A stretch of 64,000 bases of DNA from a virus (taxonomy: Duplodnaviria; Caudoviricetes), in the IMG/VR virus record IMGVR_UViG_3300025715_000009, positions 192,001 through 256,000 of that record; one strand, written 5' to 3'. Both the position numbers and the translations under genes were made by a program. The notes beneath the pieces are model-generated. The model did no database searches, was not told the DNA's origin, and worked only from the letters and a program-made list of their open reading frames with translations. Positions 10,801 through 25,479 of the stretch are shown here, one piece after another; position 1 is the stretch's first letter; every line of letters begins with the position of its first letter.

Positions 10801-13800
10801 CAAATGGAGAATCAATGATATAATTAAAATAATCGAACCAATAAACAAATCTATTGTTGATATAATCATAAACAAAACCAATAGAATGCCATTGATTAAA
10901 GAAATCATCGGTTGTTTCAAATCTCCAAATTGATGAAGAATCATTATTTATAGAATATTCAAATATACCTCTATTTTTGTCTGAATCAAAATAATAAATA
11001 ACTTTTAATCCAAGAGATTGATTAACAATTCCAGCATCATAAGCAGGCAAAGAAATTATTGTTTTTGTTTCATTATTCTCGTATTCAAAATATGGTTTAA
11101 ATTTAAAGAATATAGTTCCTCTTTCTTTGTTAAGCAAAGATTTACCAATCTTAATTCTACCAATAGTATTATTAGTTGACTCAACAAATGGAGAAGCAAA
11201 TGTTTTTGCTTCTAATTGAACTGAATCAATATAAATACGATCAACTTCTTTTATAACAAATCCAATATTATAATCACCTGCATATTCATTTATAAATGTA
11301 TAAATTACTCTCCACCAATTATCATCAAGTTTTTCAATCTTAGTCCAATTTTTTTCTTCATTAGTAATCTTACATTGTAAATGATTAGATGTAATTCTGT
11401 CATCACTATGAATATAAGCAGATAATGTATATTTTGTATTCTCTTGTAAGAATTTTCTTTGAGTTATATAAAGAGGAACTGTGGACATCTTTTCAACAAC
11501 TAAAGAATTTTCAGAGAATTTATTATATTTTGGATTAAGATTAAAAGAGACAGTGTTATTTAATGGTGTTTCTAAAACAACTGATATATCCCAAATTTCA
11601 GAACCAGGAACTCCAACTTGTTTTAATCCAGATATTACCTGTATTGGATTAATTACACCAACATCTTCTTTAAAATCAACTTCAATAGAGGAGGCAACAA
11701 AATCATCTGTTAAGAACATTAATCTTCCATTTCTTATACCCCAAGTAATTCTTGTATTTATTCCTTCAAATGCAGCATACATCATCTTCTCTAATTCATA
11801 TTGATTAGAAATTGTTACTCTAGCATAACCATCAAATGCTGCTGGAAGAGTAGAATAATTCACACCTATTGCAGTTAACAAATCGTTCGTTTCTGTTGTG
11901 TCTGTAAATTTAACGCCTGAATTTGTGCCTTCAAAATTTGATATTGCTCTAATATCTAATCCAACTTTATTCCAAGATATACCTAAATTTAAATTGTTTA
12001 ATTTAGAAAGGATAATATCCCATCTATCATCTACTGGTGTTCCATATTGTTTTGTTTGAGTAGTTGCATCAAGTGCATCTAATAATTCACAAGTTGGATT
12101 TATTTCAACAGATGCAGTATCTCCTCTTGCTGTTGTTGTGGCTCTTAATTTGCCATTTACAATTGACCATATAAGATCGCCTGATGTAACAACATTTAAT
12201 TTATTTACAAGACTTGCAAATGTTGTATTTGCATTTGATCCTTCTTGGAAAATTAAATATCTAGCTCCAGCAGTTCCAGATCTTGGATTTATATTAACAG
12301 CACCATTTTCTATATTTGTAAATCTAACATATGGTAATTTACCTTGATAATTTACGGCTAATGTTATAACACCATTTAATGTTCCTATTGATGGATCAGA
12401 AATATAGTGTGTATCATCTGTTGTAACTATTTCAACAACTGCACCAGTCCCAGATGCATTAAATTCTGCTGCAGTATTTACCGTAGTTCTTATTGCATCT
12501 GCTATCTCTTCTTTTGTAACAAGCCCATCAATTTCAACTTTAATTCCAGTATAACCAGATGGAGAAGGATTGGTTGTTGGTTTTATACCACTTGTTATTA
12601 CACTACCAGTAAAATTAATATAAGAAAAATCAGGTGGTGAAACAGATTCTTTTACAGCATTTGTAACTGTCAATATATTATTAAGAACAGTTGAATTAAA
12701 ATCAATAACACTATTTATTCTACTATTAGTTAATGATGCTACATCGTTTGCTGACTCATTTGCAGCAATTTCAACCATATGTCCAATACCAGAACCTAAA
12801 TATGTTTTTGCTCTATAATTTTTACCCTTTACTTTAAGACTAAAAATCATATCAGAGCCAAATGTTCCATTTGAAGATTCAAGACTGGTTGCTCCTGCAG
12901 GAATAATAAATCTGGCTGTATATTCACCTTCACTGTTATAATTTCTTATCATCGAATCATTTGTAAATCCAGATACTTGAGCGGTCAATACAGCAATTGT
13001 TTTTTCTATAATAGCAATTCTCTGATCAACACCAGTTATTGAAGAATCAAGATCTACTTTAATTCTATTTTTATCAGAAGGTGGAAGTGTAACAGATTGA
13101 TTATTAACAGTATAATAAACATAATAATCTCCTGTTGGCGTTGATAACTCAAAATATTTACCTTCATAGTCTTCTTTTAATTTAATCGTATCTGTGAATT
13201 CAAGAGTAAATTGTTCTTGAACTGCAGGCTGATTTATTCCAGGATCACGGCCATCATTAGCAACATTATACCAGAAATAGTGCTCATTTCCACCGCCTGA
13301 AATGGTAAAGAATTTTTCATTAAGCATTAAATTTGGATCATTGCTTGTTGTGTCATCAGCAGAACAAGTAATTTCTGTAACTTGTTCAACGCCAGCTTGA
13401 TTAGCATCAAACCATACATAATATAATCTATCATTACCATATTGATCATTGCTCATAATAGTAAAATATTTACTATCATAATCAAGAATATTGTTTGATA
13501 GTGCTGTTATTGTGGTAGTTTCTGCTTGACCATTATGCTTGGTTGCAGTCATTTTGGTGACTGGGAACGCAGTCGCAACTTTTGTTAAAATTGCATCTTG
13601 ATTATCACCACTTGCTATTACTACCTCAACACCAGTTTTTGTGCTTGGAGAAGCAAGATTTGTATCTGGCGCAGCACCTACTTTTGTTGTTGTAATTGTA
13701 AATATTCCAATTGAATCATGATCTTCTGCTAATGAAAGAGTAGCATTTTGAGTATTTGTTATTGTAATAACATTATCAACTCTTTGAATGTTAAAATCTG

Positions 13801-16800
13801 AAATTGGAGATAATAGTGTTACTATTCTATTTGCTATTTCATTTCTTAAAACTTCAGGACCAAGAACACTATATGTTAAATTAAGCGGCAAATAAGATCC
13901 TGTATTCCCAAAATCTGGAGTACTACCAGAAACAGTTGAAACATCAATCCAAATGTTTACTGCTGTTCCATCATTTTTATATATTGTAAATCCTTTGCCT
14001 TCCCACGATGTATATCCTGGTATATCCCAATTTAAATTCACAGTAATAACTGTTGTTTGTTTTTGTCCAGCGGGGTCACGTGATCCACCATCCAGATATG
14101 TTCCATCAGAGAACCAAACATAATATTGTGTTTCGTCTCTTAAAGAAGAAATCTCAAAGAATTTATTTTTTAAATAACCAAGATCACCAACAACGGTTAT
14201 ATCTGTTATTTCTTTTGTTCCTTCAAGTTTAACAGTCTTATCAACAACAGTTGATCCAGGATAAAGAGTATATTGTAAATCATATTCTGTTTCCACACCA
14301 CTTGGATTTAAAGGAGTAGGAGATGAACCAGTGATTGAAGAAGAAAATGTTAGTTCTTGATATCCAGGATCTGCTTCTAATTCAATTGTGTGTCTCTCAG
14401 TTGGTTGGCCGTTTATATCAATATCAAATACAAATTCACCAGCACCAACTCCTGATGAAGCATTAAAATCTGTAATATTAAGACCAAGATCTTGATATCC
14501 TGCAGCGGCAGAATATTGTGGTAAATCTGGGTTCACAACGTTAATAGTTATACCAGTATTATCTGATATCAATCTTGACTCATAGGTTTTTATTCTCCAA
14601 TTAGATTCAAGAACAAGTGGTGTAGTATAATCAATAACTGTAGTTTGGGCAAGAGCATTGTGATTACCAGAGAAATTAGAGTTTTGTAATATGTTCTCTG
14701 TTGGGTTGCCAATAAACCAAGCCTGATATCCATCTTCCCAAGTCATTCTCTTGTTTGTCTCTGGCAAGAATCTATTTTTCTTAGCACCAAGATCTGAATC
14801 ACCTTTTAATGACCAATATTCTTGTAATGTACGTGGATCAAGAGTTCTAGCAAGAGGAATTTGATTTACATAAGACACAGGATCGTTGAATTGAACTTTT
14901 TTTACATTCCAAAGTTCGAATTGTTTACGATCAATGAATCTGTTATCGATTCTAAACTCATCATAATAACCAGTCATCTTATTAGAACCATCAAATGCGG
15001 CACCAATAGTTATATATTTTGTAATATCATTATAATTCCAAGCATTGTTTCCATCATCACCCCTACCAGGGATAAGTTTTCCATTTGTGTATCTTGAAAG
15101 ATCATATTTAACAAATGATTCAATTGATTCTTGATCATTATGATAGAAAATAATAATATTTTGTAATTTATTATATTCATCAAACTGTGGTTTAGAGTTA
15201 ATTATTTTTTCATAGTTGATTGTAAAAGAAAGCCTATGCCATTTTTGATATTCTTCATCAGATGTGATGTCAATTGGAGAAATTATAGAATAAGATTTTT
15301 CTTTATTAGCAACTATAACCCTAAAGTGATATGGGTCTGTTGGTGAATTGGTAGGATCTGGTTCTACTGAATGATTATCAAGAGCATTGTTGTTATAAGC
15401 CAATACAATATAATCTTCATTATCATCAGCAACTCTTGTATCAAATAAAATACCAGAGTTAGCAACTGATCCTGCTGGTTTAAATTCTAATGTAACAGTT
15501 ATTTTTTCAGAATTTATAGCCATTGCATAACGAATTGCTTCATCAATATAAGCAGTGTAATTCTTTAATTTTCTTGGGATGTCTTTTTCTGTTTGCTGTC
15601 TTATTTCTGCATAACAGCCAAGATCTAATCCACCTCTACCTTGCTCAAGAGCAGGAGAGTCTGATGTTGATCCTTTTGCAATTGACTTCAAATGATAATC
15701 ATCCTCACCAATAAACTGTGGAGATCCACCAACACCTTCAGAATAAATACAAGATTCTCTGCCCAATAAATCACCACTTCTATAGTTAAAGTTTGTATAT
15801 TCTCCAACCCCAGTAGAGAAATTTGGGAAATCAATAAAACAAGTGTCAAAATTTACTGATGAGTTTGTATTGAATGGTTTTGCTTGATCACCAAGTACTT
15901 CATTATTATTAAATAAAATTGAGTTAGAATAATTAATTATTAAATCATATTTTGGTGTAGCAAACAAACCATTATTATCTGCAATAGTACAGAAATCAAA
16001 CCCAAAACTTCCAGACCAATTTGGTTCAGGATCAAATTCAACAATATGATCTGTTGAATTGTGAATAAGACAATTTTGGAAAGTATATGATGCTGATTGT
16101 TGAACAATGTTTGTGAATACATCACCAGGCGCAATAGACTCATTATCACTTGTAGCAACAGATAATGGAGTGCCTGTAATACCATCATCTCTTTCACTTG
16201 ATTTCATATATGGGTGAATAAATGGAGATGGATATAAGATATTCTTTACACGAATCAATGAATTATGATTATATCTTGCTTCAGAATTATATATATTTAT
16301 TTTTTGTGGAGAAACACAGTTTAAAGATGTATTTTCAAACGTACAATAATAAATTGATAGTTCATTATAAGGATAAAGAGAAGTATTTTTAAAATAAATG
16401 CCTTGTAAATTAAGTTTAGTGATGTTTTGAATTGATCCAAGCCAATTACAATAAGATTTAGCAACAATGGAAACGGTAAATGGTTTATCAATTTCTATAT
16501 TTTCTGTGATGTTTGCTGGTTGAGTAATAATAATATTAGTAACATAATCATCAGTATCATTATAATACAATGCATCAAGTGCTTTTTTAACTGTTTTAAA
16601 TGCTGTTGTTTCAGATCTACCATTGTTAGTATCTAAACCAGAAATTGGGTCTACAAACACAGAGAATGATGTTCCTGGATAAGTAAATTTAGTTCTTAAT
16701 CCTAATTGATATCCATCATGCCATGCGCCAATTTCTTCAAGTTGAATAACAGAATAATTTTTAATGATAGGTATAATTTTGCTATTCTGAATAAAATTGA

Positions 16801-19800
16801 GAGGCGTGAGTCCATTTGTAGAATTAAAGTCTTTCTTAAATGGGAAGTAGGCAAGTGTTTCTGGTAATAATGAAATATTAAAATTAAGATTATCACGAGC
16901 ATCAATATAAATTCTTCTATCGTAAATATCATTGATTTGATAATCATTGTCAACAACATTTATTTCATAAAGAACATCATTATTTGTATTGTCTTCTATT
17001 TCATATATTTCAACACCGTTATAATATTGTTTTGATTCTCTTATTCCAGTTCCTACACCTGGATCATATGGTTTATATGGATTATCATAAGCAGATCTAC
17101 CACGAACAATATAAATAAAATTACCAAATCTATCTGGAGTATTACGAATTTTAATTTGATCAATTCTTGGATAATGATAATTATAAGATACCTTTATAGG
17201 ATCTTGTATTTCAAGAGACAACATTGCAAACATTTGATTGATTGCCCAAATTCTTCCTTCAGGGCGGAGTAAGAAATAATCATCTCTTGGATCATAAATA
17301 ATAGTTGTTATAGGTTTAGAATTTCCAAAATCATAAGCATTGAATATTTTTTCATATTTATATTGGAAGTAAAAATATTCATTATCAGATATTGTTTCAT
17401 GGATTGTGATCTTTCTTGTGTTTGTATCAAAAGAATAATCAATTCCTTTTTCCATTTCTTGATATTCAACAAAATCTGCCCAAACGTGCATGTTTGGATC
17501 AATACGAGAGAATCTTGATCCTTCAATAAATGGAGTTGCTGAAGCATTCTTTTCTAATTGTACTTTATCAACTAATAATTGACCTGTAGTAAGAGAATAA
17601 ATTTCTACTCTCAATTTAGTTGTTCTTGAATCTTGTACTTCATGAGATAAAGACAGTCTATGCCATTTATCATAATCTTCTACATCTTCAAAATTGTTGA
17701 ATTCACCAATTTCTTTAATTAAAACAGAAGATCTAAATACAGTATCAGTAAAAGAGTTAGATGATTTATTATATCCAAAATTATTTACATTAGAATTATC
17801 ACACTCTGAAATTCTTATTATTGCTTTTGAATAATTGTATGATTTAAGATCTAATGATAAAGTATATGTATCAGATGCAAAATCAACATCTTTTACTTGA
17901 TAAATTAATCCTATTTCTTCACCAGAAGTCTCTGGTTGTAATACAAATTCTGTTATATCGTTTCTATCATCATAGAGATCTTTTGTTTGTTTAAATCTTG
18001 TTTCTATTTCATTACCATTTAATAAATGTAAATCCCAAGAAGTTGGCACATTATCATTATAAAATTTTTCCCAAATTGTTTCTATTGTAGATCCACTTGG
18101 ATTTATGCAGCGATAATAAGTACTTTCATTAGACACAAACCAAGCATCGTTCAACACCATGCCATTGACTGGTAATTCACTTTTTAAAGATTTTTGTCCT
18201 TTATAAACATAACCAAATTTTTGGATAGCGGATTGGAAATAAGAGAAATCTGGATTAGATAACAAGTTATCTGTGTCAGATCTTATTATTTTATTGTTTG
18301 TATAATCAACAAAATAATCTTCACCTTCTGTAAATCCTACTTCTGCAACGGTGTTTGTCTTTAATCTTACTGAACCTTTGAGAAGATTATAACCTGGATC
18401 TATTGGAAGATCGATCCAAACTTTATTTATAGAAGTATCACCAAATGTTTTTTCTACGTTATCAATATGTTTATATTTTGTCAATACAACATCATCATAA
18501 ATTTTCCATTTTGTATAATATGGAATTTCAACCCAATGATCTCCAAGCCATTGATAATATGCTTTATCTAAAACATGCCAAATATCGCCAACATTAGAGG
18601 AATTGAGTGATTTTGGAAGTAATTCTTCTGTTAATACAGTTCCTTTTATGATTGGAGTGTCTGGATAAAACCCAGAACTATTCTTTAAAACATTAGGATC
18701 ATATTTGGATTGGAATATTTGCTTTCCTCTAATTATATAAAACTTTTTTGTTTGATTTTCAGGGATAAATATTTTGTGAACGTTTCCACGAATGTGTTTA
18801 GTTAAATCTTTTCTTCCTATGGAATAAAATCCATCTGTTTTAATTGAAGAAGATTCTGGAATTTTCCAATCAAAGTCTGGAGATATTGAATCTTGACCTC
18901 TCGGATCTAACCATTCTAATTTTGCTCCAGAATATATTGTTTTAATTGCTTCATATATTTGTTGAATAGTCCAAGGACCTGAATCTTCTTTTGGTGATAT
19001 AATAGTTATTTGTTCACCATCTTTTTTACCATCAACCCAAACTTCAAAACCATATCTTTCATTTGGCTTATAATAACCCAATGTTGTATCACCATTTGGA
19101 TCAATAACTTCATAGCAGTGTTCTATTCTTGTAAATTCTCTTGAAGCGGAGTCTACACCATTTGAATAAACAAATATATTCTCACCTAATAAATCCAAAA
19201 GTTGTTCACTATCATCTGTAGCAGGTTTAAATTCTATAGTATGATCATTTGCATCATCTTTATATTTTGCTTTTATTACTCTATTGTCAACTGTTCCGCC
19301 AAAAAGAATACGATCATTGAATTTTGCAATTGATTCAAACTTATAAATATTTTTTGTAAAATCAAGATCACTTTCTTTTTCACCAATATCAACAAGAGTA
19401 AATCTGTCATACGTAGTATAATTATTTAAGAAAACAAGGGAGTAAATTCTCTTATCATCTGCAACAAACATTCTATTAGAATCATCATGTAAAGCAGCAT
19501 TTACTCTTTTAATTTTACCATATTTACCATTTACATATTTTATTGCTTGTGGTCCTGTTGGGTTTTTTATATCAATAAAAGCAAATGGTGGATCTTGGGT
19601 ATTATTTGGTTGTTTTTCAAAACCAATAAAGAGATATTCATAGTTTTCAACATATTGAGATGCTTGATATAATCCTTGGATGGCAACATTGATTGAGAAG
19701 CCTTCTGGTCCTAATGTTCCTGCTTCAGCATCTACAACTTCTCCTGGCAGATCAGTCTTAACTTGAACTTTTATAGTGTTTTGAATTCTGTAAGCCACAA

Positions 19801-22099
19801 AATCTGACAAGAAGTTAATTGCAGCAGCAGTTTTATCAGCAACATTAATTGCTGTATCATTTTTATTAATTAAAACGGAAACACCGGTTTTAGTTGCTAA
19901 TTGTGGATATAATGGAAGACCACTTCCTGGAGAAGATTCTACCAATTTGGGATCAAGAGAATCACCAACACCATTAAGGTCTGTATCAACATTCATCCAA
20001 ACATAATAATCAGTAAATGGAGAATTTATAAGAAAATATTTTCCAGACAAAGAACCATTTACATCGGCAGCACAAGTTATATCTGTAATTTCTATTCCTG
20101 TATTATCTATCTCTTCTAATTGTGCTCCATCTATTTGAAGTGGTGTATTAGATTCACAATTAATATAATATTTCAAATATTTTGCATCATTAGAAGATAC
20201 CCTAAATGATAGTTCTGGTCTTATCCACGTGTTGATATTGCTTGAATCTATTGCCCAATTTTCTTCACTAAGTGTGATAATTTCATCATTTGCATTATAC
20301 TCAGCAATTCCAATTGTAGAATTTTGTGGAGCAACTGATTTTAAGAAAACAGAAAAATTATAAATTCTATTTCTTGAATTTGGCTCTAAAAGATATGTTT
20401 GCCAGACAGTAGCCTTAGAAGCAGAAACATATTTTGTAAGTACACCTTTATAATTACCCCATCTATCAGTATTAGAATTACCAGAAGAGGCTGTCATCTT
20501 GAATGTAGAAAGCATTGGGATGAGATTGTCAGTTATATTCCAGTTTGTAGGAGTATCTCCAGGAACGCCTGTTTCAAATGATCCGTTTTTTGAGAGATTA
20601 AAAATATTTTTATTGATAGATGTATCAATTATAATATTTCCTCTTGTTCTCTCTAATGTTGTAATTGTTTTTACAAGTGGATTTCCTGCTTGGTCTTTTA
20701 TTGTTGTATTTAAATCTAATGCAGTAAATGTCCAATTAAACATATCGTCTTCATCTATAACTTCACTTAAACGTTGATCAGAATGCCAAAGTGTTGTTTC
20801 ACCAGCAATCCAAATTTGATCATTCCATTCATACATAGATATAATGTTTTGATCAGTGCTAAATAATCCGAGTGTTTTTACAGCAGCCTCAGGAAATGTA
20901 TTAGTTAAATCAATTGCTCTAATAAAACCATTTGTTCCGAATACAAATAAATGATTTTTAAATCTCTTTATGCCAGTGTTAATAAATGTGGTTGATCCAC
21001 TGCTAATATCTTTTTGTTGCAATTGTATTGATACAGCGGATTTATAATATAGGTACTTTGTCTGTGTAGATCTAAGAATAAAATAGATATTATCATTAGA
21101 ATCAACATATAGATCTTGAATATCAGCATTAGAATCTAAAAGATTTTCTGCTACTGACCATTGAATGTCGTTAAAGAAGATACCATCTGTTATAACTTCA
21201 TATTCTTTTTCACCAGTTGTTAAATTTGTTGTAAATCTATTTTTTTCTAAGAATTTATCTTTTATTTCAATATCTTTTTTTATTTCGACATTAGATACAT
21301 ATGTTCCTGGAATTGTTTGACCTTCATCAGTTGGACATTTTAACCAATAGCCTTCACTACTCTGACCAAAATTGATATCATTTTGGAAGTTAACAACTTC
21401 ATTAGTAGATGCTTTTGAATCTGCTTTTAATGGTGTTATTTCTTCCCAATCTCTATATGTTTTATATACTAAAACTCTATCGTCTTGACTTGGATTAGTT
21501 GTTGATTTATTAGTAATTTTTATTTCATAAGACTCAAAATTATCCGGGAGATTTTCAGATATTGTTGTATAAACAACTCTATATTCACCAAAATAATTAT
21601 CATCTTTAAGATCAGTAAAGGCAACTCCATCTTCATATTCAGGGAAAAGAAGTGAATCATCTTCTCGCAAGAAATATAATATTTTTTGATTTCCAATACG
21701 AGTAACTTTACCATTTATAATAGAAGAGCCAGAATTAACTCTAAGAGGTGTTATAAATATTTCAGAGGATGGAACTTCAGGGTCAGTATAATAATCTTGT
21801 GTTTGTATGTCAAGTGAAAATTCGTTATATTTATTTTTAAAAACACCATGATCTACTTCAGAAGCAACATCAGAAATGTTTTTATCTAATATAACATCAT
21901 TCTCTACCAAGTTTTTGAGTGGTCTATTATCTGTAGAAGCAACAACTTCATCTTCTTCAATATAAGCCTCTACACCAGGACCAATAATTTCTCCATTGAT
22001 ATCATAGGCCAATCCTTTAGTATTTGGATTGTCTCTATCACTATGATCTGGATATGGATTTCCTATTGAACCCGTGCTCCATTTTTTGATAACGCTCAT
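7832..22099 (-). CDS. Giant (4755 aa) multidomain tail fibre/baseplate protein
   Basis: NRPLKNLVEND anchor motif, beta-propeller-like region, three CBM-like domains (N..F...IDxxQLE), beta-helix-like segment (FVDPISGLDTNNG...AFKTVKKA), LamG-like domains, coiled coil, GASLIG...TTVExxLxE repeats, C-terminal HxLxT repeats. Confidence 0.85.
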   Translation of the reverse strand: MSVIKKWSTGSIGNPYPDHSDRDNPNTKGLAYDINGEIIGPGVEAYIEEDEVVASTDNRPLKNLVENDVILDKNISDVASEVDHGVFKNKYNEFSLDIQTQDYYTDPEVPSSEIFITPLRVNSGSSIINGKVTRIGNQKILYFLREDDSLLFPEYEDGVAFTDLKDDNYFGEYRVVYTTISENLPDNFESYEIKITNKSTTNPSQDDRVLVYKTYRDWEEITPLKADSKASTNEVVNFQNDINFGQSSEGYWLKCPTDEGQTIPGTYVSNVEIKKDIEIKDKFLEKNRFTTNLTTGEKEYEVITDGIFFNDIQWSVAENLLDSNADIQDLYVDSNDNIYFILRSTQTKYLYYKSAVSIQLQQKDISSGSTTFINTGIKRFKNHLFVFGTNGFIRAIDLTNTFPEAAVKTLGLFSTDQNIISMYEWNDQIWIAGETTLWHSDQRLSEVIDEDDMFNWTFTALDLNTTIKDQAGNPLVKTITTLERTRGNIIIDTSINKNIFNLSKNGSFETGVPGDTPTNWNITDNLIPMLSTFKMTASSGNSNTDRWGNYKGVLTKYVSASKATVWQTYLLEPNSRNRIYNFSVFLKSVAPQNSTIGIAEYNANDEIITLSEENWAIDSSNINTWIRPELSFRVSSNDAKYLKYYINCESNTPLQIDGAQLEEIDNTGIEITDITCAADVNGSLSGKYFLINSPFTDYYVWMNVDTDLNGVGDSLDPKLVESSPGSGLPLYPQLATKTGVSVLINKNDTAINVADKTAAAINFLSDFVAYRIQNTIKVQVKTDLPGEVVDAEAGTLGPEGFSINVAIQGLYQASQYVENYEYLFIGFEKQPNNTQDPPFAFIDIKNPTGPQAIKYVNGKYGKIKRVNAALHDDSNRMFVADDKRIYSLVFLNNYTTYDRFTLVDIGEKESDLDFTKNIYKFESIAKFNDRILFGGTVDNRVIKAKYKDDANDHTIEFKPATDDSEQLLDLLGENIFVYSNGVDSASREFTRIEHCYEVIDPNGDTTLGYYKPNERYGFEVWVDGKKDGEQITIISPKEDSGPWTIQQIYEAIKTIYSGAKLEWLDPRGQDSISPDFDWKIPESSSIKTDGFYSIGRKDLTKHIRGNVHKIFIPENQTKKFYIIRGKQIFQSKYDPNVLKNSSGFYPDTPIIKGTVLTEELLPKSLNSSNVGDIWHVLDKAYYQWLGDHWVEIPYYTKWKIYDDVVLTKYKHIDNVEKTFGDTSINKVWIDLPIDPGYNLLKGSVRLKTNTVAEVGFTEGEDYFVDYTNNKIIRSDTDNLLSNPDFSYFQSAIQKFGYVYKGQKSLKSELPVNGMVLNDAWFVSNESTYYRCINPSGSTIETIWEKFYNDNVPTSWDLHLLNGNEIETRFKQTKDLYDDRNDITEFVLQPETSGEEIGLIYQVKDVDFASDTYTLSLDLKSYNYSKAIIRISECDNSNVNNFGYNKSSNSFTDTVFRSSVLIKEIGEFNNFEDVEDYDKWHRLSLSHEVQDSRTTKLRVEIYSLTTGQLLVDKVQLEKNASATPFIEGSRFSRIDPNMHVWADFVEYQEMEKGIDYSFDTNTRKITIHETISDNEYFYFQYKYEKIFNAYDFGNSKPITTIIYDPRDDYFLLRPEGRIWAINQMFAMLSLEIQDPIKVSYNYHYPRIDQIKIRNTPDRFGNFIYIVRGRSAYDNPYKPYDPGVGTGIRESKQYYNGVEIYEIEDNTNNDVLYEINVVDNDYQINDIYDRRIYIDARDNLNFNISLLPETLAYFPFKKDFNSTNGLTPLNFIQNSKIIPIIKNYSVIQLEEIGAWHDGYQLGLRTKFTYPGTSFSVFVDPISGLDTNNGRSETTAFKTVKKALDALYYNDTDDYVTNIIITQPANITENIEIDKPFTVSIVAKSYCNWLGSIQNITKLNLQGIYFKNTSLYPYNELSIYYCTFENTSLNCVSPQKINIYNSEARYNHNSLIRVKNILYPSPFIHPYMKSSERDDGITGTPLSVATSDNESIAPGDVFTNIVQQSASYTFQNCLIHNSTDHIVEFDPEPNWSGSFGFDFCTIADNNGLFATPKYDLIINYSNSILFNNNEVLGDQAKPFNTNSSVNFDTCFIDFPNFSTGVGEYTNFNYRSGDLLGRESCIYSEGVGGSPQFIGEDDYHLKSIAKGSTSDSPALEQGRGGLDLGCYAEIRQQTEKDIPRKLKNYTAYIDEAIRYAMAINSEKITVTLEFKPAGSVANSGILFDTRVADDNEDYIVLAYNNNALDNHSVEPDPTNSPTDPYHFRVIVANKEKSYSIISPIDITSDEEYQKWHRLSFTINYEKIINSKPQFDEYNKLQNIIIFYHNDQESIESFVKYDLSRYTNGKLIPGRGDDGNNAWNYNDITKYITIGAAFDGSNKMTGYYDEFRIDNRFIDRKQFELWNVKKVQFNDPVSYVNQIPLARTLDPRTLQEYWSLKGDSDLGAKKNRFLPETNKRMTWEDGYQAWFIGNPTENILQNSNFSGNHNALAQTTVIDYTTPLVLESNWRIKTYESRLISDNTGITINVVNPDLPQYSAAAGYQDLGLNITDFNASSGVGAGEFVFDIDINGQPTERHTIELEADPGYQELTFSSSITGSSPTPLNPSGVETEYDLQYTLYPGSTVVDKTVKLEGTKEITDITVVGDLGYLKNKFFEISSLRDETQYYVWFSDGTYLDGGSRDPAGQKQTTVITVNLNWDIPGYTSWEGKGFTIYKNDGTAVNIWIDVSTVSGSTPDFGNTGSYLPLNLTYSVLGPEVLRNEIANRIVTLLSPISDFNIQRVDNVITITNTQNATLSLAEDHDSIGIFTITTTKVGAAPDTNLASPSTKTGVEVVIASGDNQDAILTKVATAFPVTKMTATKHNGQAETTTITALSNNILDYDSKYFTIMSNDQYGNDRLYYVWFDANQAGVEQVTEITCSADDTTSNDPNLMLNEKFFTISGGGNEHYFWYNVANDGRDPGINQPAVQEQFTLEFTDTIKLKEDYEGKYFELSTPTGDYYVYYTVNNQSVTLPPSDKNRIKVDLDSSITGVDQRIAIIEKTIAVLTAQVSGFTNDSMIRNYNSEGEYTARFIIPAGATSLESSNGTFGSDMIFSLKVKGKNYRAKTYLGSGIGHMVEIAANESANDVASLTNSRINSVIDFNSTVLNNILTVTNAVKESVSPPDFSYINFTGSVITSGIKPTTNPSPSGYTGIKVEIDGLVTKEEIADAIRTTVNTAAEFNASGTGAVVEIVTTDDTHYISDPSIGTLNGVITLAVNYQGKLPYVRFTNIENGAVNINPRSGTAGARYLIFQEGSNANTTFASLVNKLNVVTSGDLIWSIVNGKLRATTTARGDTASVEINPTCELLDALDATTQTKQYGTPVDDRWDIILSKLNNLNLGISWNKVGLDIRAISNFEGTNSGVKFTDTTETNDLLTAIGVNYSTLPAAFDGYARVTISNQYELEKMMYAAFEGINTRITWGIRNGRLMFLTDDFVASSIEVDFKEDVGVINPIQVISGLKQVGVPGSEIWDISVVLETPLNNTVSFNLNPKYNKFSENSLVVEKMSTVPLYITQRKFLQENTKYTLSAYIHSDDRITSNHLQCKITNEEKNWTKIEKLDDNWWRVIYTFINEYAGDYNIGFVIKEVDRIYIDSVQLEAKTFASPFVESTNNTIGRIKIGKSLLNKERGTIFFKFKPYFEYENNETKTIISLPAYDAGIVNQSLGLKVIYYFDSDKNRGIFEYSINNDSSSIWRFETTDDFFNQWHSIGFVYDYINNRFVYWFDYFNYIIDSPFANNIWADMYIGYDTSTEKAADIVVKDVIIHDYTTTDSEVLNWNTTYEFYNESFISSNIEEMKNEILGIKQDTYEYVDITNDIVNTVNSLQSRVAEYEENEINNDNAISKLKNFTGYAWPFNQDSSSLPSGVGNHENRITTLEATALNLDIKTTSIQNNLINTNNAVNTLDGNIDTLSDGLNNEINARVIADQQIKDLYASTDINKGAALIGVYDVGARYSATTVEDILQEIAGAGRTTESLKSLKDDITAIGSSTSTSLEDLDYMQDGNSGLWTRSLAQSSGYNIYNIKTNLTALDIEVESIKDNQTSVAESYQDILTGFVDADDTALSSNGDYSLIINGGEYYFTTSSIITWEDLIINYLPNAIHTTSGLPLSLSYRIEAISYIDGVNTLYNIRIFDKTDYTLGHAINIQSGISYLDLISSLGATLSSATAIGSSFIASTMNNVTLSSRITQEVNDRQATVNALRTDLLSQDLNRGASLIGVEGNGLFIETTVEDVLQELAGPGRNASMTVAGNYNAIQGMISDISTLQTNTSSNSSSISNINNTLGLMKDGIDGSTWNALATKPNLMNHESRITTNTQNISSANVAIAVNSNDIFNLNQSVGALSTGLSTEINNRVNGDLSIRQDLASTTVGKGASLISIQDVAGKYTATTVEGALAEVDDKIAALAGALSWQSPVNTYADLPTSGNTVGNARTVLDDGDGRQAQYVWSGTAWVKIADIDWGQASDISYNNTTSTIPATTVQAAIDYVYLNQKDKTSSQGEILNTAWQVGSGQYNGYYYADVNHGLGTTDVVCLITENGIVIGVEEIERLDANNVRIYVADNSLNLDITVFGVIDKYSKVVSQWTPDGQGGYYADIVHNFNTNKLMVSTFDIDTTLGLGWLTGAESIEFIDLNTIRVKTADNATTMNVFIVKKANNSITKDIQKWTWDPTKNAYISLIQVDASYDAVFTFFDPSTGKTVGIDMVQLENGVLTLARSQNDIIRMIIVK

Positions 22100-22951: not shown

Positions 22952-23209
22952 TTAAGAATCATTTTTTGTCATTATTCTAATAATTAATTCTCTACGTTGT
23001 TTTTTATTTTTTGAATCAAAAACTCTTTTAGATGATACATAATATGCTATTCTTTCAATTGTATTATTATCATAACCTGGAGATACATAAAATATTTTAT
23101 AGTTTTTAAGTTGTATACCCAAACTCTTATCTACAAAATCATCAAATGTTAAAATAACACCTTTAAAATAATCTACAGTGTCATCAAATAATATATAATA
23201 GAACCTCAT
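22952..23209 (-). CDS. Small hypothetical protein with C-terminal IxxI helix motif
   Basis: 85 aa, 4-bp overlap with upstream gene; ends QRRELIIRIMTKNDS. Confidence 0.7.
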   Translation of the reverse strand: MRFYYILFDDTVDYFKGVILTFDDFVDKSLGIQLKNYKIFYVSPGYDNNTIERIAYYVSSKRVFDSKNKKQRRELIIRIMTKNDS

Positions 23210-23781
23210 ATCAACTCCAACTTGGGAAATTCTATTTGTTTACCAAATTCTACACCATTATTCTCCAAATATAATCTTGTATTCTTTTCACAAATTATTC
23301 TTATGATTTTCTCTGCTATTTTTGGGCTTATTTTTTGCCCATTGCTTTTTTTTATCATTCTTGGTTCTTCGTTTAACAAGCCCCAATTGCTTGGTAATTT
23401 ATCCTCTGAAATCATATTATCTGGTGCTATAATATATCTATATGTTGATAATTTTAGTAATGATTCATCTAATAATTTTGTGCTTTTATCTCTTGTTTTC
23501 TTTAACTGTTTAATATATTTTTCTTTATCACAATCTATTTTAAACTGCTCTTTTAATAATTGAATTTTGGTTTTTATATCATCAGGATTATTTAATTCTC
23601 GAGTATAATCTTTTATATCTTGTTTGGCCTCTATGATGAAAACTCTTGAGCCATCTGTTCCAATTACATCAAAAATATATTTACCTATTTTTACTTCAGT
23701 AGAAATATATTGACATTCAGCATTTAAATATAGCCACTCTATTGCTTTCATCTTAAGGACTTCATGATTATGGGTTGCCAT
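23206..23781 (-). CDS. PD-(D/E)XK nuclease, MmcB-like
   Basis: TEV...FDVIG...IIEAK...D and YIIAPDNMISEDKLPSNWGLL. Confidence 0.65.
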   Translation of the reverse strand: MATHNHEVLKMKAIEWLYLNAECQYISTEVKIGKYIFDVIGTDGSRVFIIEAKQDIKDYTRELNNPDDIKTKIQLLKEQFKIDCDKEKYIKQLKKTRDKSTKLLDESLLKLSTYRYIIAPDNMISEDKLPSNWGLLNEEPRMIKKSNGQKISPKIAEKIIRIICEKNTRLYLENNGVEFGKQIEFPKLELI

Positions 23782-24031
23782 ATAGATAATCCTTGATTAC
23801 TTTATCATCTTTATATAACCTATGAATATATAGCGAGCCATCTTTTTTCCACAGTTTATATTCACCATCATAATTTTTATTTTTATAAAAACAATGCATA
23901 ACTAAACTGCCATTTTCATGCCATTCTTTATATTCACCCTCACTCTTATATCCACTAAACCATAGGCCATTCATCATTGCTCTTTGAGGATTATTAAATA
24001 AATAAACTATTTGTTCATGCATTACATTCAT
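23768..24031 (-). CDS. MORN-variant repeat protein (2 repeats)
   Basis: GEYKEWHENG / GEYKLWKKDG. Confidence 0.85.
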   Translation of the reverse strand: MNVMHEQIVYLFNNPQRAMMNGLWFSGYKSEGEYKEWHENGSLVMHCFYKNKNYDGEYKLWKKDGSLYIHRLYKDDKVIKDYLYGNP

Positions 24032-24357
24032 TTTAAATAATCCTTGACCACTTCACCATCTTTAAATAAATAATGTTTATATAATTTTCCATTATCAAAC
24101 CATGATTTATATTTGCCATCTTTTTCACCTTGTTTATAAAAACAATGTACCCATAATTGCCCATTTTCGTGCCATCTTTTATATTCACCATCTAATTCAT
24201 CATTTTTATAAAAGCAATGTCTTGTTAATTGCCCATTTTTATACCATTCTTTATATTCACCCTCACTCTTATAACCACTAAACCATAAACCATTCATCAT
24301 TGCTCTTTGAGGATTAGTAAATAAATCTTTTATTTGCTCTCTGGCTATATATTTCAT
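24028..24357 (-). CDS. MORN-variant repeat protein (3 repeats)
   Basis: GEYKEWYKNG / GEYKRWHENG / GKYKSWFDNG. Confidence 0.85.
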   Translation of the reverse strand: MKYIAREQIKDLFTNPQRAMMNGLWFSGYKSEGEYKEWYKNGQLTRHCFYKNDELDGEYKRWHENGQLWVHCFYKQGEKDGKYKSWFDNGKLYKHYLFKDGEVVKDYLK

Positions 24358-24539
24358 TCTAAATAATCCTTGATTACTTTACCATCTTTAAATAAATAAT
24401 GTTGTGTTAATTTACCTTTTTTATCCCATAATTTATATTCACCATTATACTCATAGCCACTAAACCATAAACCTATTATAAATATTGTTTTTTGAGGATT
24501 ATTAAATAAATCTACTATCTGTTTACGCATTATATTCAT
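24354..24539 (-). CDS. MORN-variant repeat protein (1 repeat)
   Basis: GEYKLWDKKG; paralogous N- and C-termini. Confidence 0.8.
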   Translation of the reverse strand: MNIMRKQIVDLFNNPQKTIFIIGLWFSGYEYNGEYKLWDKKGKLTQHYLFKDGKVIKDYLE

Positions 24540-24790
24540 TCTAAATAATCCTTGACTATTTCACCATTTTTATATAAATAATGTCTATATAATTTTCCAT
24601 TTTTATACCATGATTTATATTCACCTTCCATATTACCATTTTTATTAAAAAAACAATGTTCCCATAATTGACCATTTTCATACCATGATTTATATTCACC
24701 TTCCCACTTATATCCACTATAAAATAAACCATTGGTTATTGTTTTTTGAGGATTAGTAAATAAGTCTATTATCTGCTTATGCATTATCAT
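24536..24790 (-). CDS. MORN-variant repeat protein (2 repeats)
   Basis: GEYKSWYENG / GEYKSWYKNG. Confidence 0.85.
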   Translation of the reverse strand: MIMHKQIIDLFTNPQKTITNGLFYSGYKWEGEYKSWYENGQLWEHCFFNKNGNMEGEYKSWYKNGKLYRHYLYKNGEIVKDYLE

Positions 24791-25016
24791 ATATAGCCTT
24801 TATAAAAAACCTTTTATCATCATCTGAACAATTATAATCTACTTTTACATCAAAATTTCTAATAAATAATTTTAAATTTCCATCGTTTAAAAATACTAAT
24901 TTATTATCACCGATGAAATTATATATCATAATATAATGATCTTTGGAATTTTTAACTATTATACCATGCTTTTTATCTGTTATTATTGGTTTATACAAAT
25001 AATCACTTAGGTTCAT
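24777..25016 (-). CDS. Small hypothetical protein with C-terminal IKxIY helix motif
   Basis: 79 aa, overlaps both neighbours; ends DKRFFIKAIYDNA. Confidence 0.7.
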   Translation of the reverse strand: MNLSDYLYKPIITDKKHGIIVKNSKDHYIMIYNFIGDNKLVFLNDGNLKLFIRNFDVKVDYNCSDDDKRFFIKAIYDNA

Positions 25017-25209
25017 TTTCCCATTCTCTTAATAAAGCATATAAATCTTCTTTATTCTTAACCGCAGGTTGAAAATCATTGAGAATAATATATCCAATCA
25101 TTCTATGATAACCTTGTTCACTCTCCTCTTTTTGAATAATCAAGGCTTTATCTAATTGTTCAGAAGTAATTATTCCTCTTTGAACTAAAAATTCTCCAAA
25201 TTTTGCCAT
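25003..25209 (-). CDS. Stand-alone MshEN-like (c-di-GMP-binding motif) protein
   Basis: KFGEFLVQRGIITSEQLDKALIIQ matches RLGxxLVxxGxIxxxQLxxALxxQ; degenerate second copy RMIGYIIL...EDLYALL; AGGAG RBS. Confidence 0.7.
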   Translation of the reverse strand: MAKFGEFLVQRGIITSEQLDKALIIQKEESEQGYHRMIGYIILNDFQPAVKNKEDLYALLREWENEPK

Positions 25210-25252
25210 TTCCTACTCCTATAGTAGTAATATATTTATTCTATATTTATAC

Positions 25253-25299
25253 GTTCACCATGTGAACTCCAGAGTTCATGTAGTGAACAGCTCTGTTCA
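25253..25299. promoter_or_regulatory. Operator-like array of five alternating GTTCA/TGAAC half-sites (21-bp period)
   Basis: GTTCAccatgTGAACtccagaGTTCAtgtagTGAACagctctGTTCA; can also fold as a 17-bp imperfect hairpin. Confidence 0.55.
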
Positions 25300-25479
25300 T
25301 TTAATAAACAGCCTTATAGTATATCCTTGAAATTTTTCAAACAATAATTTAATAATTTTTTTATATGGAAGGGCCTCATAATAGTTATCATTAATTCTTT
25401 TTTTATATATATTGCATAATCCATTTGGCATGTGTTTGAGTAAACCTGCTTGATTATATGTTATATAATATTCATCCAT
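25297..25479 (-). CDS. Small hypothetical protein with IIKLLF motif
   Basis: 60 aa in a co-oriented ORFan block. Confidence 0.55.
   Translation of the reverse strand: MDEYYITYNQAGLLKHMPNGLCNIYKKRINDNYYEALPYKKIIKLLFEKFQGYTIRLFIK

What the first reader, a model, noticed from the sequence alone, without database searches (positions are those of the whole stretch)
25003..25209. Stand-alone MshEN-like protein: possible phage c-di-GMP sponge or pilus-ATPase decoy
Seen: a 68-aa protein consisting almost entirely of one well-matching 24-residue MshEN motif (RL changed to KF) and a degenerate second copy. Known: MshEN is a high-affinity c-di-GMP-binding module of PilB/MshE/GspE ATPases; c-di-GMP controls pili, motility and biofilm and activates bacterial STING in some CBASS systems; phages encode small nucleotide sponges. 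Inference: it sequesters c-di-GMP or interferes with pilus/T2SS assembly. The Arg-to-Lys change makes binding uncertain.
Basis: partly seen in the sequence, partly recalled or inferred. Interest (0 to 1): 0.72.

Follow-up and report, generated by a model that had tools for sequence, protein, structure and literature searches.

The report
Phage stand-alone mini c-di-GMP receptor
A 388-kb uncultured phage carries a conserved 68-residue protein that is only the four-helix c-di-GMP-binding part of bacterial pilus and secretion ATPases, and the same phage also encodes a c-di-GMP synthase, so it probably brings its own sensor for this bacterial signal, which has not been described for a virus.

Summary
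ORF 25003-25209(-) is a real 68-aa gene under purifying selection (dN/dS 0.23-0.63). It is kept in at least two related phage contigs.

Residues 3-26 match the extended MshEN half-site consensus, and this is the only such match in all six frames of the 388-kb genome. Residues 37-63 are a remodelled second half-site. The evidence that it is a stand-alone MshEN_N (ND0) four-helix module:
- hhalign against canonical stand-alone MshEN_N: 98% probability, E 7e-14.
- All 11 PDB profile hits are MshE, PilB or PilF.
- The 10 best Foldseek hits are c-di-GMP-bound MshEN or PilF domains.

It scores 34.3 bits against NCBIfam NF053729 (cut-off 38). The Arg-to-Lys worry is answered: PilF GSPII-B has Lys natively and binds at 6 nM, and isolated four-helix subdomains bind at 54-350 nM.

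New context:
- The phage also encodes an intact TM-GGEEF cyclase and a REC-HD-GYP enzyme.
- It has no PilZ, EAL or c-di-GMP riboswitch.
- The gene overlaps a conserved 79-aa partner gene by 14 nt.
- Its nearest cellular relatives are 57-68-aa proteins of Spirochaetota.

Best reading (about 0.5): a phage-borne c-di-GMP mini-receptor or buffer. A pure sponge or a pilus-ATPase decoy is less likely. Binding is untested. The scan had already read this same stretch in an overlapping window (e1-5467256).

The parts
25003..25209 (-). Gene for the 68-aa stand-alone MshEN_N (ND0)-like four-helix protein
   Evidence: ORF. Homologues of 64-69 aa. dN/dS 0.23-0.63. AF2 model with four helices, pLDDT 77. The 10 best Foldseek hits are c-di-GMP-bound PilF GSPII-B or MshE, TMq 0.58-0.65. 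hhalign 98.1%, E 7e-14 against canonical MshEN_N. NCBIfam NF053729 at 34.3 bits, E 1.5e-8, below the 38-bit cut-off.
25132..25203 (-). Motif I (residues 3-26, KFGEFLVQRGIITSEQLDKALIIQ): the canonical c-di-GMP half-site
   Evidence: Fits the extended consensus (R/K/L)LGxx..Q of PMC11731258, apart from L->F at position 2, and fits the relaxed motif of PMC5013675. It is the only such match in the six-frame genome. It aligns to profile positions 1-27 of NF053729. K3, F4, G5, L19, L23 and Q26 are invariant in the closest homologues.
25102..25131 (-). Ten-residue spacer (residues 27-36) ending in the invariant G33-Y-H35-R36. The canonical spacer is 5 residues.
   Evidence: Alignments A1 and A3. A 5-residue insertion relative to canonical proteins. 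'G-x-H-R-x-(I/L)-G' recurs in a bacterial subclass: P0011, P0012, P0019, P0052, P0094 and P0107. Spacers of 3-14 residues occur among the profile hits.
25021..25101 (-). Motif II (residues 37-63): the remodelled second half-site. M37 takes the Arg position. I38, G39, L56 and L60 are kept. F46 replaces the turn Gly, the loop is 3 aa longer, and W63 replaces Gln.
   Evidence: hhalign and MAFFT alignments to canonical two-motif proteins. NF053729 does not recognise it in this protein. It does recognise it in the family member P0008, which scores 40.0 bits over profile positions 1-51.
24777..25016 (-). Downstream 79-aa partner gene, overlapping the MshEN_N gene by 14 nt (25003-25016)
   Evidence: The same 14-nt overlap and a homologous 75-85-aa gene are found in L002 and L065. 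No family match. AF2 model pLDDT 63, four strands plus two helices.
25216..25220 (-). Shine-Dalgarno AGGAG
   Evidence: Read directly from the sequence.
25219..25312 (-). 94-bp regulatory cassette: three TGAAC/GTTCA palindromes, then a sigma70-like promoter (TTCACA-17-TAGAAT, 25238-25266) that overlaps a TATAAATA box
   Evidence: Three near-identical copies lie in the genome, each ending at the ribosome-binding site of a different small gene. Promoter scan gives 10 of 12 matches. RNA fold z-score -3.7. It resembles the PeSL cassettes of T4-type phages (PMC2839356, PMC4122927).

Best explanation
The ORF encodes a stand-alone MshEN_N (ND0) four-helix module. This is the 53-residue-type c-di-GMP-binding core of MshE/PilB/GspE-type ATPases, without the ND1 subdomain or any output domain.

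It most likely binds one c-di-GMP across two half-sites:
- Half-site 1: K3 stacks on guanine 1. The backbone amides of G5/E6 read O6/N7. L19, L23 and I38 form the hydrophobic triangle. Q26 contacts the ribose-phosphate.
- Half-site 2 is remodelled: M37 (or the invariant R36) stacks, with G39/Y40 and the triangle F4/L56/L60. W63 stands in place of Gln.

The phage also carries a membrane-anchored GGEEF cyclase with an RxxD I-site and a REC-HD-GYP enzyme. It has no PilZ, EAL or c-di-GMP riboswitch. So this protein, and possibly a second, more degenerate 60-aa paralogue, would be the phage's own receptor or buffer for c-di-GMP. Output would go through protein-protein contact, most plausibly with the translationally coupled 79-aa partner.

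The gene was probably acquired from a host lineage in which such mini-proteins exist (Spirochaetota). It sits behind a mobile promoter cassette inside the tail-gene block.

Shown: homology, fold, conservation, gene coupling and the phage's c-di-GMP enzymes. Inferred: ligand binding, the partner interaction, timing and physiological effect.
For: Homology and fold:
- phmmer and hmmsearch against PDB return only MshE, PilB and PilF chains.
- Foldseek ranks 1-10 are c-di-GMP-bound PilF GSPII-B or MshE, probability 0.72-0.99, rmsd about 2.5 A over 60-65 columns.
- hhalign gives 98.1%, E 7e-14 over residues 3-64.
- NF053729 gives E 1.5e-8.
- The profile search finds 402 proteins, mostly tandem RLG-motif proteins.

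Ligand plausibility:
- All 12 contact positions are invariant in the close family.
- Lys at position 1 and a large hydrophobic residue at position 1 of motif II are native to PilF GSPII-B, Kd 6 nM.
- Isolated four-helix subdomains bind c-di-GMP: MshE 1-62 at 350 nM and PilF159-221 at 54 nM.

Context:
- TM-GGDEF, E 8e-45, with GGEEF, the DxD-type metal site and RxxD intact.
- REC-HD-GYP, E 9.5e-35, with the HD and GYP motifs intact.
- No PilZ, EAL, Pfam-MshEN or GEMM riboswitch.
- The related phage record G001 has the same gene pair, the second mini-protein and a GGDEF.
- The 14-nt overlap with a homologous partner gene is conserved in three phages.
Against: - No binding data exist.
- The protein and its five closest homologues tested score 32.8-35.4 bits against NF053729, below the 38-bit cut-off. 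Only motif I is recognised.
- Motif II deviates from the consensus: Q->W, no turn Gly, a longer loop and a 10-aa spacer.
- PilF GSPII-A shows that a few such deviations, plus an extended capped helix, can abolish binding (PMC12002112).
- In the AF2 model helix 3 starts at residue 31, so the G39 amide would be buried unless that helix unwinds. pLDDT there is only about 69.
- HD-GYP enzymes of jumbo phages have been read as counter-defence against CBASS/CRISPR signals rather than as c-di-GMP regulators (PMC7824862).
- Co-occurrence with GGDEF rests on only two phage records.
- The partner's function and fold remain unknown.
Confidence: 0.5

Rival explanations
1. It is a c-di-GMP sponge. The protein is made in bulk and titrates host c-di-GMP. 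That would push the cell to a low-c-di-GMP state or blunt a c-di-GMP-dependent defence such as CdnE/STING CBASS.
For: It has the same binding-site evidence as the best explanation. It is small, has no output domain, and has a strong SD and its own promoter cassette. Phage nucleotide sponges are an established strategy.
Against: The phage encodes its own apparently active cyclase, and already has an HD-GYP enzyme to lower the signal. A phage cyclase would be self-defeating in a host with c-di-GMP-activated STING. The protein has no similarity to Acb2, Tad1, Tad2 or Acb4 in the PHROGs, Pfam or Foldseek results. Conserved translational coupling to a partner is not needed for a sponge.
Confidence: 0.17
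2. It is a ligand-free adaptor or decoy. The ND0 bundle has lost nucleotide binding and acts only by protein-protein contact. It could mimic the N-terminus of host MshE/PilB/GspE-type proteins towards their regulators, or bind only the 79-aa partner.
For: Degenerate ND0 domains that do not bind c-di-GMP but do bind partners are known: Xanthomonas PilB ND0-ND1 with PilZ (PMC8389850), and PilF GSPII-A. Motif II is divergent and the score is below the NF053729 cut-off. Phage peptides that target PilB or PilZ are known: Tip, Aqs1 and Zip (PMC11656802).
Against: Motif I is a perfect half-site, and every contact position including G39, L56 and L60 is invariant. That is unexpected if ligand binding were lost. 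The protein lacks ND1, the GspL/EpsL docking subdomain. The likely host phylum (Spirochaetota) is not known for type IV pili (own knowledge).
Confidence: 0.2
3. It binds a different cyclic dinucleotide, for example 3'3'-cGAMP or another G-containing hybrid, through one canonical guanine half-site and one remodelled half-site. It would then act in counter-defence together with the HD-GYP enzyme.
For: The two half-sites are asymmetric: motif I is canonical, and motif II has Q->W, M and a longer loop. HD-GYP enzymes of jumbo phages are predicted to act against nucleotide signals.
Against: MshEN reads guanine O6/N7 through backbone amides of the Gly and the next residue in both motifs. G39 is invariant, so the second site still looks guanine-type. 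No precedent was found.
Confidence: 0.06
4. It is a chance ORF or a decaying gene fragment with no function.
For: It is small, sits in an AT-rich genome, and has no Pfam or PHROG hit.
Against: Homologues exist at 43-91% identity. dN/dS is below 1. SD, overlap geometry and synteny are conserved in three phages. The motif is unique in the genome.
Confidence: 0.02

Closest known systems
MshEN_N / ND0 subdomain of MshE, PilB and PilF (V. cholerae MshE 5HTL; T. thermophilus PilF GSPII-B 8PDK; NCBIfam NF053729 'c-di-GMP_motif')
   Same: Four-helix bundle made of two tandem 24-residue motifs. Motif I matches the extended consensus. The Gly of both motifs, both hydrophobic triangles and the first Gln are kept. 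Lys at position 1 and a hydrophobic residue at position 1 of motif II are as in PilF GSPII-B.
   Different: It stands alone, with no ND1 and no ATPase. The spacer is 10 aa with an invariant G-x-H-R instead of 5 aa. There are 3 extra aa and no Gly in the alpha3-alpha4 turn. Trp replaces the second Gln and Phe replaces Leu at position 2. The NF053729 score is 34.3, below 38. It is encoded by a virus.
Stand-alone mini-MshEN_N proteins of Spirochaetota: Spirochaeta (Winmispira) thermophila STHERM_c15060 (68 aa), the 65-aa gene between glpK and ilvE in Leptospirales/Spirochaetia MAGs, and the 57-aa protein of MAG JAKSBL01
   Same: Same size and single-module architecture. They start with the same 'M(K/R)FGEFL'. 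They are the nearest cellular relatives, at 40-48% identity. They pass the NF053729 cut-off with 48-67 bits.
   Different: The cellular proteins have a canonical or near-canonical motif II and mostly a 5-aa spacer. They have no overlapping partner gene. As far as I could find, none has been studied experimentally.
Single-domain c-di-GMP receptors that act by protein-protein contact (stand-alone PilZ proteins such as MapZ or spirochaete PlzA; own knowledge)
   Same: A small receptor without an output domain, whose effect must come from ligand-dependent binding to a partner.
   Different: Unrelated fold and binding motif (RxxxR/DxSxxG). Bacterial, not viral.
Phage nucleotide sponges (Acb2, Acb4, Tad1, Tad2) and phage PilB/PilZ-binding peptides (Tip/Aqs3, Aqs1, Zip)
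   Same: Small phage accessory proteins that intercept host nucleotide signalling or pilus motors.
   Different: No sequence or fold similarity was detected. The known sponges are oligomers that target defence signals. None uses the MshEN binding mode.
PeSL promoter/stem-loop cassettes of T4-type phages (PMC2839356, PMC4122927)
   Same: A repeated unit of about 94 bp, made of stem-loops plus an early-type promoter, placed directly before small accessory genes.
   Different: The sequence is unrelated. There are three copies only. The TGAAC/GTTCA half-sites could equally be an operator array.

Membership tests
MshEN_N (53-residue c-di-GMP-binding domain; Wang 2016; NCBIfam NF053729) | First 24-residue motif (R/K/L)LGxx(L/V/I)(L/V/I)xxG(L/V/I)(L/V/I)xxxxLxxxLxxQ | tested here: met
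   Residues 3-26 fit except for L->F at position 2. They fit the authors' relaxed motif fully. The match is unique in the genome.
MshEN_N (53-residue c-di-GMP-binding domain; Wang 2016; NCBIfam NF053729) | Second 24-residue motif of the same consensus | tested here: inconclusive
   I38, G39, I42-L43, L56 and L60 align to the consensus. However, position 1 is Met, the turn Gly is Phe with 3 extra aa, and the last Gln is Trp. NF053729 does not align it.
MshEN_N (53-residue c-di-GMP-binding domain; Wang 2016; NCBIfam NF053729) | Five-residue spacer between the two motifs | tested here: not met
   The spacer is 10 residues (27-36). Spacers of 3-14 residues occur among the 150 best profile hits, with peaks at 5-6 and 10.
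MshEN_N (53-residue c-di-GMP-binding domain; Wang 2016; NCBIfam NF053729) | Compact four-helix bundle (ND0 fold) | tested here: met
   The AF2 model has helices 4-10, 16-28, 31-45 and 53-65, pLDDT 77. The 10 best Foldseek PDB hits are c-di-GMP-bound MshEN-type domains, TMq 0.58-0.65. This is a predicted structure, not a solved one.
MshEN_N (53-residue c-di-GMP-binding domain; Wang 2016; NCBIfam NF053729) | Score at or above the curated NCBIfam cut-off (38 bits) | tested here: not met
   34.3 bits, E 1.5e-8, profile positions 1-27 only. Five close homologues score 32.8-35.4 bits. The more distant family member P0008 reaches 40.0 bits over positions 1-51.
MshEN_N (53-residue c-di-GMP-binding domain; Wang 2016; NCBIfam NF053729) | Statistically supported homology to canonical two-motif proteins over both motifs | tested here: met
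   hhalign of A3 against A6: probability 98.1%, E 7e-14, residues 3-64. All 11 PDB profile hits are MshE, PilB or PilF.
MshEN_N (53-residue c-di-GMP-binding domain; Wang 2016; NCBIfam NF053729) | High-affinity, specific binding of monomeric c-di-GMP | not testable with these tools
   Needs ITC, DRaCALA or NMR. Literature shows that isolated ND0 subdomains can bind, and that near-consensus domains can fail to bind.
Pfam PF05157 (MshEN; full N-terminal domain of T2SS/T4P ATPases) | Match to the Pfam model, which mainly covers the ND1 alpha/beta subdomain | tested here: not met
   No hit even at E<=10, and none anywhere in the phage genome. In control proteins the model aligns after the motif pair, so this miss reflects the absence of ND1.
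Phage cyclic-nucleotide sponges (Acb2/Acb4/Tad1/Tad2) | Sequence or fold relationship to a known sponge family | tested here: not met
   No PHROG or Pfam hit. No sponge structure appears among the Foldseek PDB hits. Only one weak BFVD neighbour.
Phage PilB/PilZ inhibitors (Tip/Aqs1/Zip) | Sequence or fold relationship to Aqs1-type peptides | tested here: not met
   No such chain is among the Foldseek PDB hits. tblastn against 50,697 phage records gives nothing significant.

The most novel reading that the evidence does not exclude
A virus carries a self-contained c-di-GMP signalling circuit. It has a synthase (TM-GGEEF), a phospho-regulated hydrolase (REC-HD-GYP) and its own minimal MshEN-type receptor with a dedicated partner protein. 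It would use this circuit to reprogram a (probably spirochaete) host or to time its own cycle. This would be the first viral c-di-GMP receptor. The two mini-proteins have complementary degeneracy: one has an intact motif I, the other a better motif II. They might even work as a pair.
Probability: 0.3. Interest if true: 0.85.

Novelty: new variant of a known kind. Interest (0 to 1): 0.68.

Why it matters
c-di-GMP controls motility, adhesion, biofilm and surface structures, which are the traits that decide phage adsorption and release. Phages are known to interfere with host cyclases or pilus motors through small peptides, and to soak up defence nucleotides. I found no report of a phage-encoded c-di-GMP receptor: the MshEN literature search returned 327 papers and none of the 25 listed concerned a phage-encoded MshEN, the jumbo-phage overview PMC7824862 mentions none, and 50,697 GenBank phage records hold no homologue.

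A 68-residue natural MshEN_N with a remodelled second half-site would also be a compact test case for what the binding motif tolerates. It could be a ready-made minimal c-di-GMP binder for biosensors. Finally, it points to a family of unstudied stand-alone mini-receptors in Spirochaetota.

Tried and rejected
Searches and scans that gave nothing:
- Pfam and PHROGs scans of the protein gave nothing useful. The Pfam miss is explained by the model covering ND1.
- The peptide-pattern scan of IMG/VR found no relative. This was a false negative: the homologue in IMGVR_UViG_3300002026_002465 was later reached through the neighbouring gene.
- blastn and tblastn against GenBank phages found no homologue.
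- An Rfam scan of the gene and its leader found nothing, so the upstream cassette is not a known riboswitch.
- GEMM-I and GEMM-II, PilZ and EAL were not found in the phage genome.
- PADLOC and NCBIfam gave no credible hit for the partner or the neighbouring genes.

Tests that did not settle the question:
- A T4-type late promoter: TATAAATA is only mildly enriched (32 against 19.4 +/- 4.6) and is not positioned before genes. Expression timing stays open.
- The partner protein's AF2 model is poor (pLDDT 63), and its Atlas neighbours carry no functional signal.
- Host inference from the cyclase: the best identities to two Spirochaetota genomes were 38-43%, against 40% in an acidobacterial genome, which is not discriminating.

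Tool problems:
- The pdb_via and pdb_via_wide libraries were not available.
I stopped that call, fetched the regions as loci and used references instead.
- The first genome contigs attempt failed because the alignment was too diverse.
Full report
OBSERVATION

The window is bases 192,001-256,000 of a 388,268-bp, 29.7% G+C, CheckV-98%-complete IMG/VR phage record. The ORF at 25003-25209 on the minus strand is 68 aa, starts with ATG, and has AGGAG 7 nt upstream.

Residues 3-26 (KFGEFLVQRGIITSEQLDKALIIQ) fit the 24-residue MshEN motif RLGxx(L/V/I)(L/V/I)xxG(L/V/I)(L/V/I)xxxxLxxxLxxQ, with R->K and L->F. They fit the relaxed search motif of the original paper without exception (PMC5013675). A pattern for the extended consensus occurs exactly once in all six-frame segments of the phage genome (332,321 residues) and never in 20 shuffles.

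Six close homologues of 64-68 aa (66-91% identity) exist in metagenomes. In their alignment every residue that corresponds to a c-di-GMP contact in MshE is invariant: K3, F4, G5, L19, L23, Q26, M37, I38, G39, L56, L60 and W63. Against the homologues in two related phage contigs, dN/dS is 0.23-0.63.

WHAT IT IS

Pfam and PHROGs give nothing. Pfam's MshEN model (PF05157) aligns to the alpha/beta ND1 subdomain that follows the motif pair in control proteins, not to the motif pair itself. A protein made only of the four-helix part is therefore expected to be missed.

Other tests agree with each other:
- phmmer and a family profile against all PDB sequences return only MshE, PilB and PilF chains (12 hits with one exception, then 11 of 11; best E 3.8e-4).
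- NCBIfam NF053729, the 53-position 'c-di-GMP_motif' model, hits at E 1.5e-8 and 34.3 bits. That is just below its 38-bit cut-off, and it aligns to profile positions 1-27 only.
- Five close homologues score 32.8-35.4 bits. The more distant family member P0008 (43% identical) reaches 40.0 bits over positions 1-51.
- Profile-profile comparison of the phage family with canonical stand-alone two-motif proteins gives 98.1% probability, E 7e-14, over residues 3-64. It needs a 5-residue insertion in the spacer and a 3-residue insertion in the alpha3-alpha4 loop.
- An AF2 model (pLDDT 77) has four helices. Its ten best Foldseek PDB matches are all c-di-GMP-bound PilF GSPII-B or MshE N-domains (probability 0.72-0.99, TM by query 0.58-0.65, rmsd about 2.5 A over 60-65 columns).
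- An exhaustive profile search of 1.84 billion representatives finds 402 proteins at E<=1e-3, mostly with 3-7 tandem RLG motifs.

The protein is therefore a stand-alone MshEN_N (ND0) module with a canonical first half-site and a remodelled second one.

IS c-di-GMP BINDING PLAUSIBLE?

- PilF GSPII-B natively has Lys at this position and Leu at position 1 of motif II. It binds c-di-GMP at 6 nM.
- K167R weakens binding, and K167L strengthens it to 2 nM.
- Dg-PilB2 (13.5 nM) and Ct-PilB (53 nM) also have Lys. The consensus was extended to (R/K/L)LG... (PMC11731258).
- The isolated four-helix subdomain is sufficient: MshE 1-62 binds at 350 nM and PilF159-221 at 54 nM.

In the phage protein, M37 sits where PilF has L196, and G39, L56 and L60 are kept.

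Against this, PilF GSPII-A shows that a handful of deviations plus a stabilised, extended helix can abolish binding (PMC12002112). The deviations there were Gln->His/Arg, Gly->Ala and Leu->Ile. The phage protein has W63 for Gln, no Gly in the second turn, a 10-residue spacer with an invariant G-x-H-R, and a modelled helix 3 that starts eight residues before G39 (pLDDT about 69 there).

Spacers of 3-14 residues, Phe at position 2 (51 of 350 motif pairs) and Lys at position 1 (76 of 350) are all within the natural range of the profile hits. The 'G-x-H-R-x-(I/L)-G' spacer defines a bacterial subclass. I found no binding data for that subclass. I put ligand binding at roughly 0.6.

CONTEXT

The gene lies in a variable patch of small genes inside the tail/baseplate block. 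All of these genes are on the minus strand. Four points bear on function.

1. A conserved partner gene. The stop codon region overlaps the start of a 79-aa gene by 14 nt (24777-25016). The same overlap and a homologous 75-85-aa gene are present in two related phage contigs: L002 (JFJP01046952.1; homologue 75% identical) and L065 (IMGVR_UViG_3300002026_002465; P0007, 58% identical). This is a conserved, translationally coupled pair. The partner has no family match, and its model is poor.

2. The phage's own c-di-GMP enzymes. The phage encodes a 224-aa protein with two predicted TM helices and a GGDEF domain (E 8e-45). GGEEF, the metal-binding Asp residues and an RxxD I-site five residues upstream are intact. 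It also encodes a REC-HD-GYP protein (E 9.5e-35) with the HD and GYP motifs intact. It has no EAL, PilZ, Pfam-MshEN or c-di-GMP-I/II riboswitch. The related 178-kb record also has a GGDEF (E 8e-46). HD-GYP was not found in that 74%-complete fragment.

3. A second mini-protein. A 60-aa mini-protein at genome position 178,405-178,587 is conserved in the related phage. It aligns without gaps to canonical MshEN_N (hhalign 87.6%, E 3.5e-6). It has lost the Gly of motif I while keeping a fair motif II.

4. Nearest cellular relatives. These are stand-alone 57-68-aa proteins of Spirochaetota: a 57-aa protein beginning MRFGEFL (L018), a 65-aa gene between glpK and ilvE in six Spirochaetota/Leptospirales MAGs, and Spirochaeta thermophila STHERM_c15060. 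These pass the NF053729 cut-off at 48-67 bits. This gives some independent support to the spirochaete-host hints in earlier notes of this scan. My attempt to test the host through the cyclase was not discriminating.

REGULATION

Directly upstream lies a 94-bp cassette (25219-25312). It has three TGAAC/GTTCA palindromes followed by TTCACA-17-TAGAAT (10 of 12 matches), which overlaps a TATAAATA box. It occurs three times in the genome, almost identically, and each copy ends at the ribosome-binding site of a different small gene. The other two genes (179 and 114 aa) have no family match.

This resembles the PeSL promoter/stem-loop cassettes that shuffle accessory genes in T4-type phages (PMC2839356, PMC4122927). 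It could equally be an operator array. TATAAATA is not convincingly enriched before genes, so expression timing is unresolved. No Rfam family matches.

MECHANISM

Best reading (confidence 0.5): the protein is a phage-borne mini-receptor or buffer for c-di-GMP. It binds one molecule across the two half-sites and acts through protein contact, most plausibly with its co-translated partner. It does so in a phage that makes, and probably degrades, the same messenger.

Rival readings:
- Pure sponge (0.17). This fits poorly with a phage cyclase and is redundant with the HD-GYP enzyme.
- Ligand-free decoy or adaptor (0.20). This is possible because degenerate ND0 domains do bind partners (PMC8389850). 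But the invariance of every contact residue argues for ligand binding, and the protein lacks ND1, the GspL/EpsL docking subdomain.
- A different dinucleotide (0.06).
- Chance ORF (0.02).

A caveat for the circuit idea: HD-GYP enzymes of jumbo phages have been interpreted as counter-defence against CBASS/CRISPR signals (PMC7824862).

NOVELTY

Phage-annotated GGDEF proteins are already in GenBank (Bacillus phage G gp350, SP-15), and HD-GYP enzymes are known in jumbo phages. Phage peptides that target a host cyclase, PilB or PilZ, and phage nucleotide sponges, are also known.

I found no report of a virus-encoded MshEN-type or any other c-di-GMP receptor. There is no homologue in 50,697 GenBank phage records, and only one weak structural neighbour in BFVD.

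I class this as a new variant of a known kind: a known binding module that is stand-alone, has a remodelled second half-site, is virus-encoded and is paired with an unknown partner. The same stretch had already been flagged in an overlapping window of this scan (e1-5467256). The cyclase/HD-GYP pair and the second mini-protein had been noted by other first readers, and I verified them here.

Noticed in passing
window 25219-25312 (also genome 104,2xx and 266,3xx; L069, L070): A 94-bp cassette occurs three times, almost identically. It has three TGAAC/GTTCA palindromes plus a sigma70-like promoter and a shared 5' leader. Each copy sits directly before a different small gene (179 aa, the MshEN_N gene, 114 aa). 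The centre of one palindrome is inverted (ATG against CAT) between copies. It is either PeSL-like or an operator array.
   Followed up: partly
genome 336,096-336,770 (L004:1483-2157, minus strand): A 224-aa protein with two TM helices and a GGDEF domain. GGEEF and the RxxD I-site are intact. A tRNA-Leu(CAA) lies immediately upstream.
   Followed up: partly
genome 367,146-368,111 (L006:1435-2400, minus strand): A REC-HD-GYP (RpfG-like) protein of 321 aa. The phospho-acceptor Asp, HD and GYP motifs are intact.
   Followed up: partly
genome 178,405-178,587 (L071:506-688, minus strand); L067:1495-1677 in the related phage: A second 60-aa mini-protein, conserved in the relative. It aligns without gaps to canonical MshEN_N (hhalign 87.6%). 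It lacks the Gly of motif I and keeps a fair motif II, which is the reverse of the pattern in the protein studied here.
   Followed up: partly
window 23768-24790: Four tandem paralogous genes (61-109 aa) of MORN_2 repeat proteins sharing an N-terminal 'L/DLF(T/N)NPQ(R/K)' stretch. They are absent from the syntenic relatives L002 and L065.
   Followed up: no
window 23206-23781: A 191-aa gene with a D...(E)xK-type nuclease-like motif (FDVIG...IIEAKQ) and a PHROG_631 hit. It is conserved next to the MshEN_N/partner pair in the relatives, and is split into two ORFs in L002.
   Followed up: no
L026:5001-5198, L011:5001-5198, L018:2681-2854; P0063: Spirochaetota genomes carry unstudied stand-alone 57-68-aa MshEN_N proteins that pass NF053729. 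One is a 65-aa gene conserved between glpK and ilvE. Another is Spirochaeta thermophila STHERM_c15060.
   Followed up: partly
window 7832-22099: A single 4,755-aa ORF (giant fibre-like protein) lies downstream of the accessory patch.
   Followed up: no
The peptide-pattern scan of IMG/VR reported no relative of the 68-aa protein. Yet IMGVR_UViG_3300002026_002465 encodes one (P0007, 58% identity). Pattern scans can miss short, diverged genes.
   Followed up: yes
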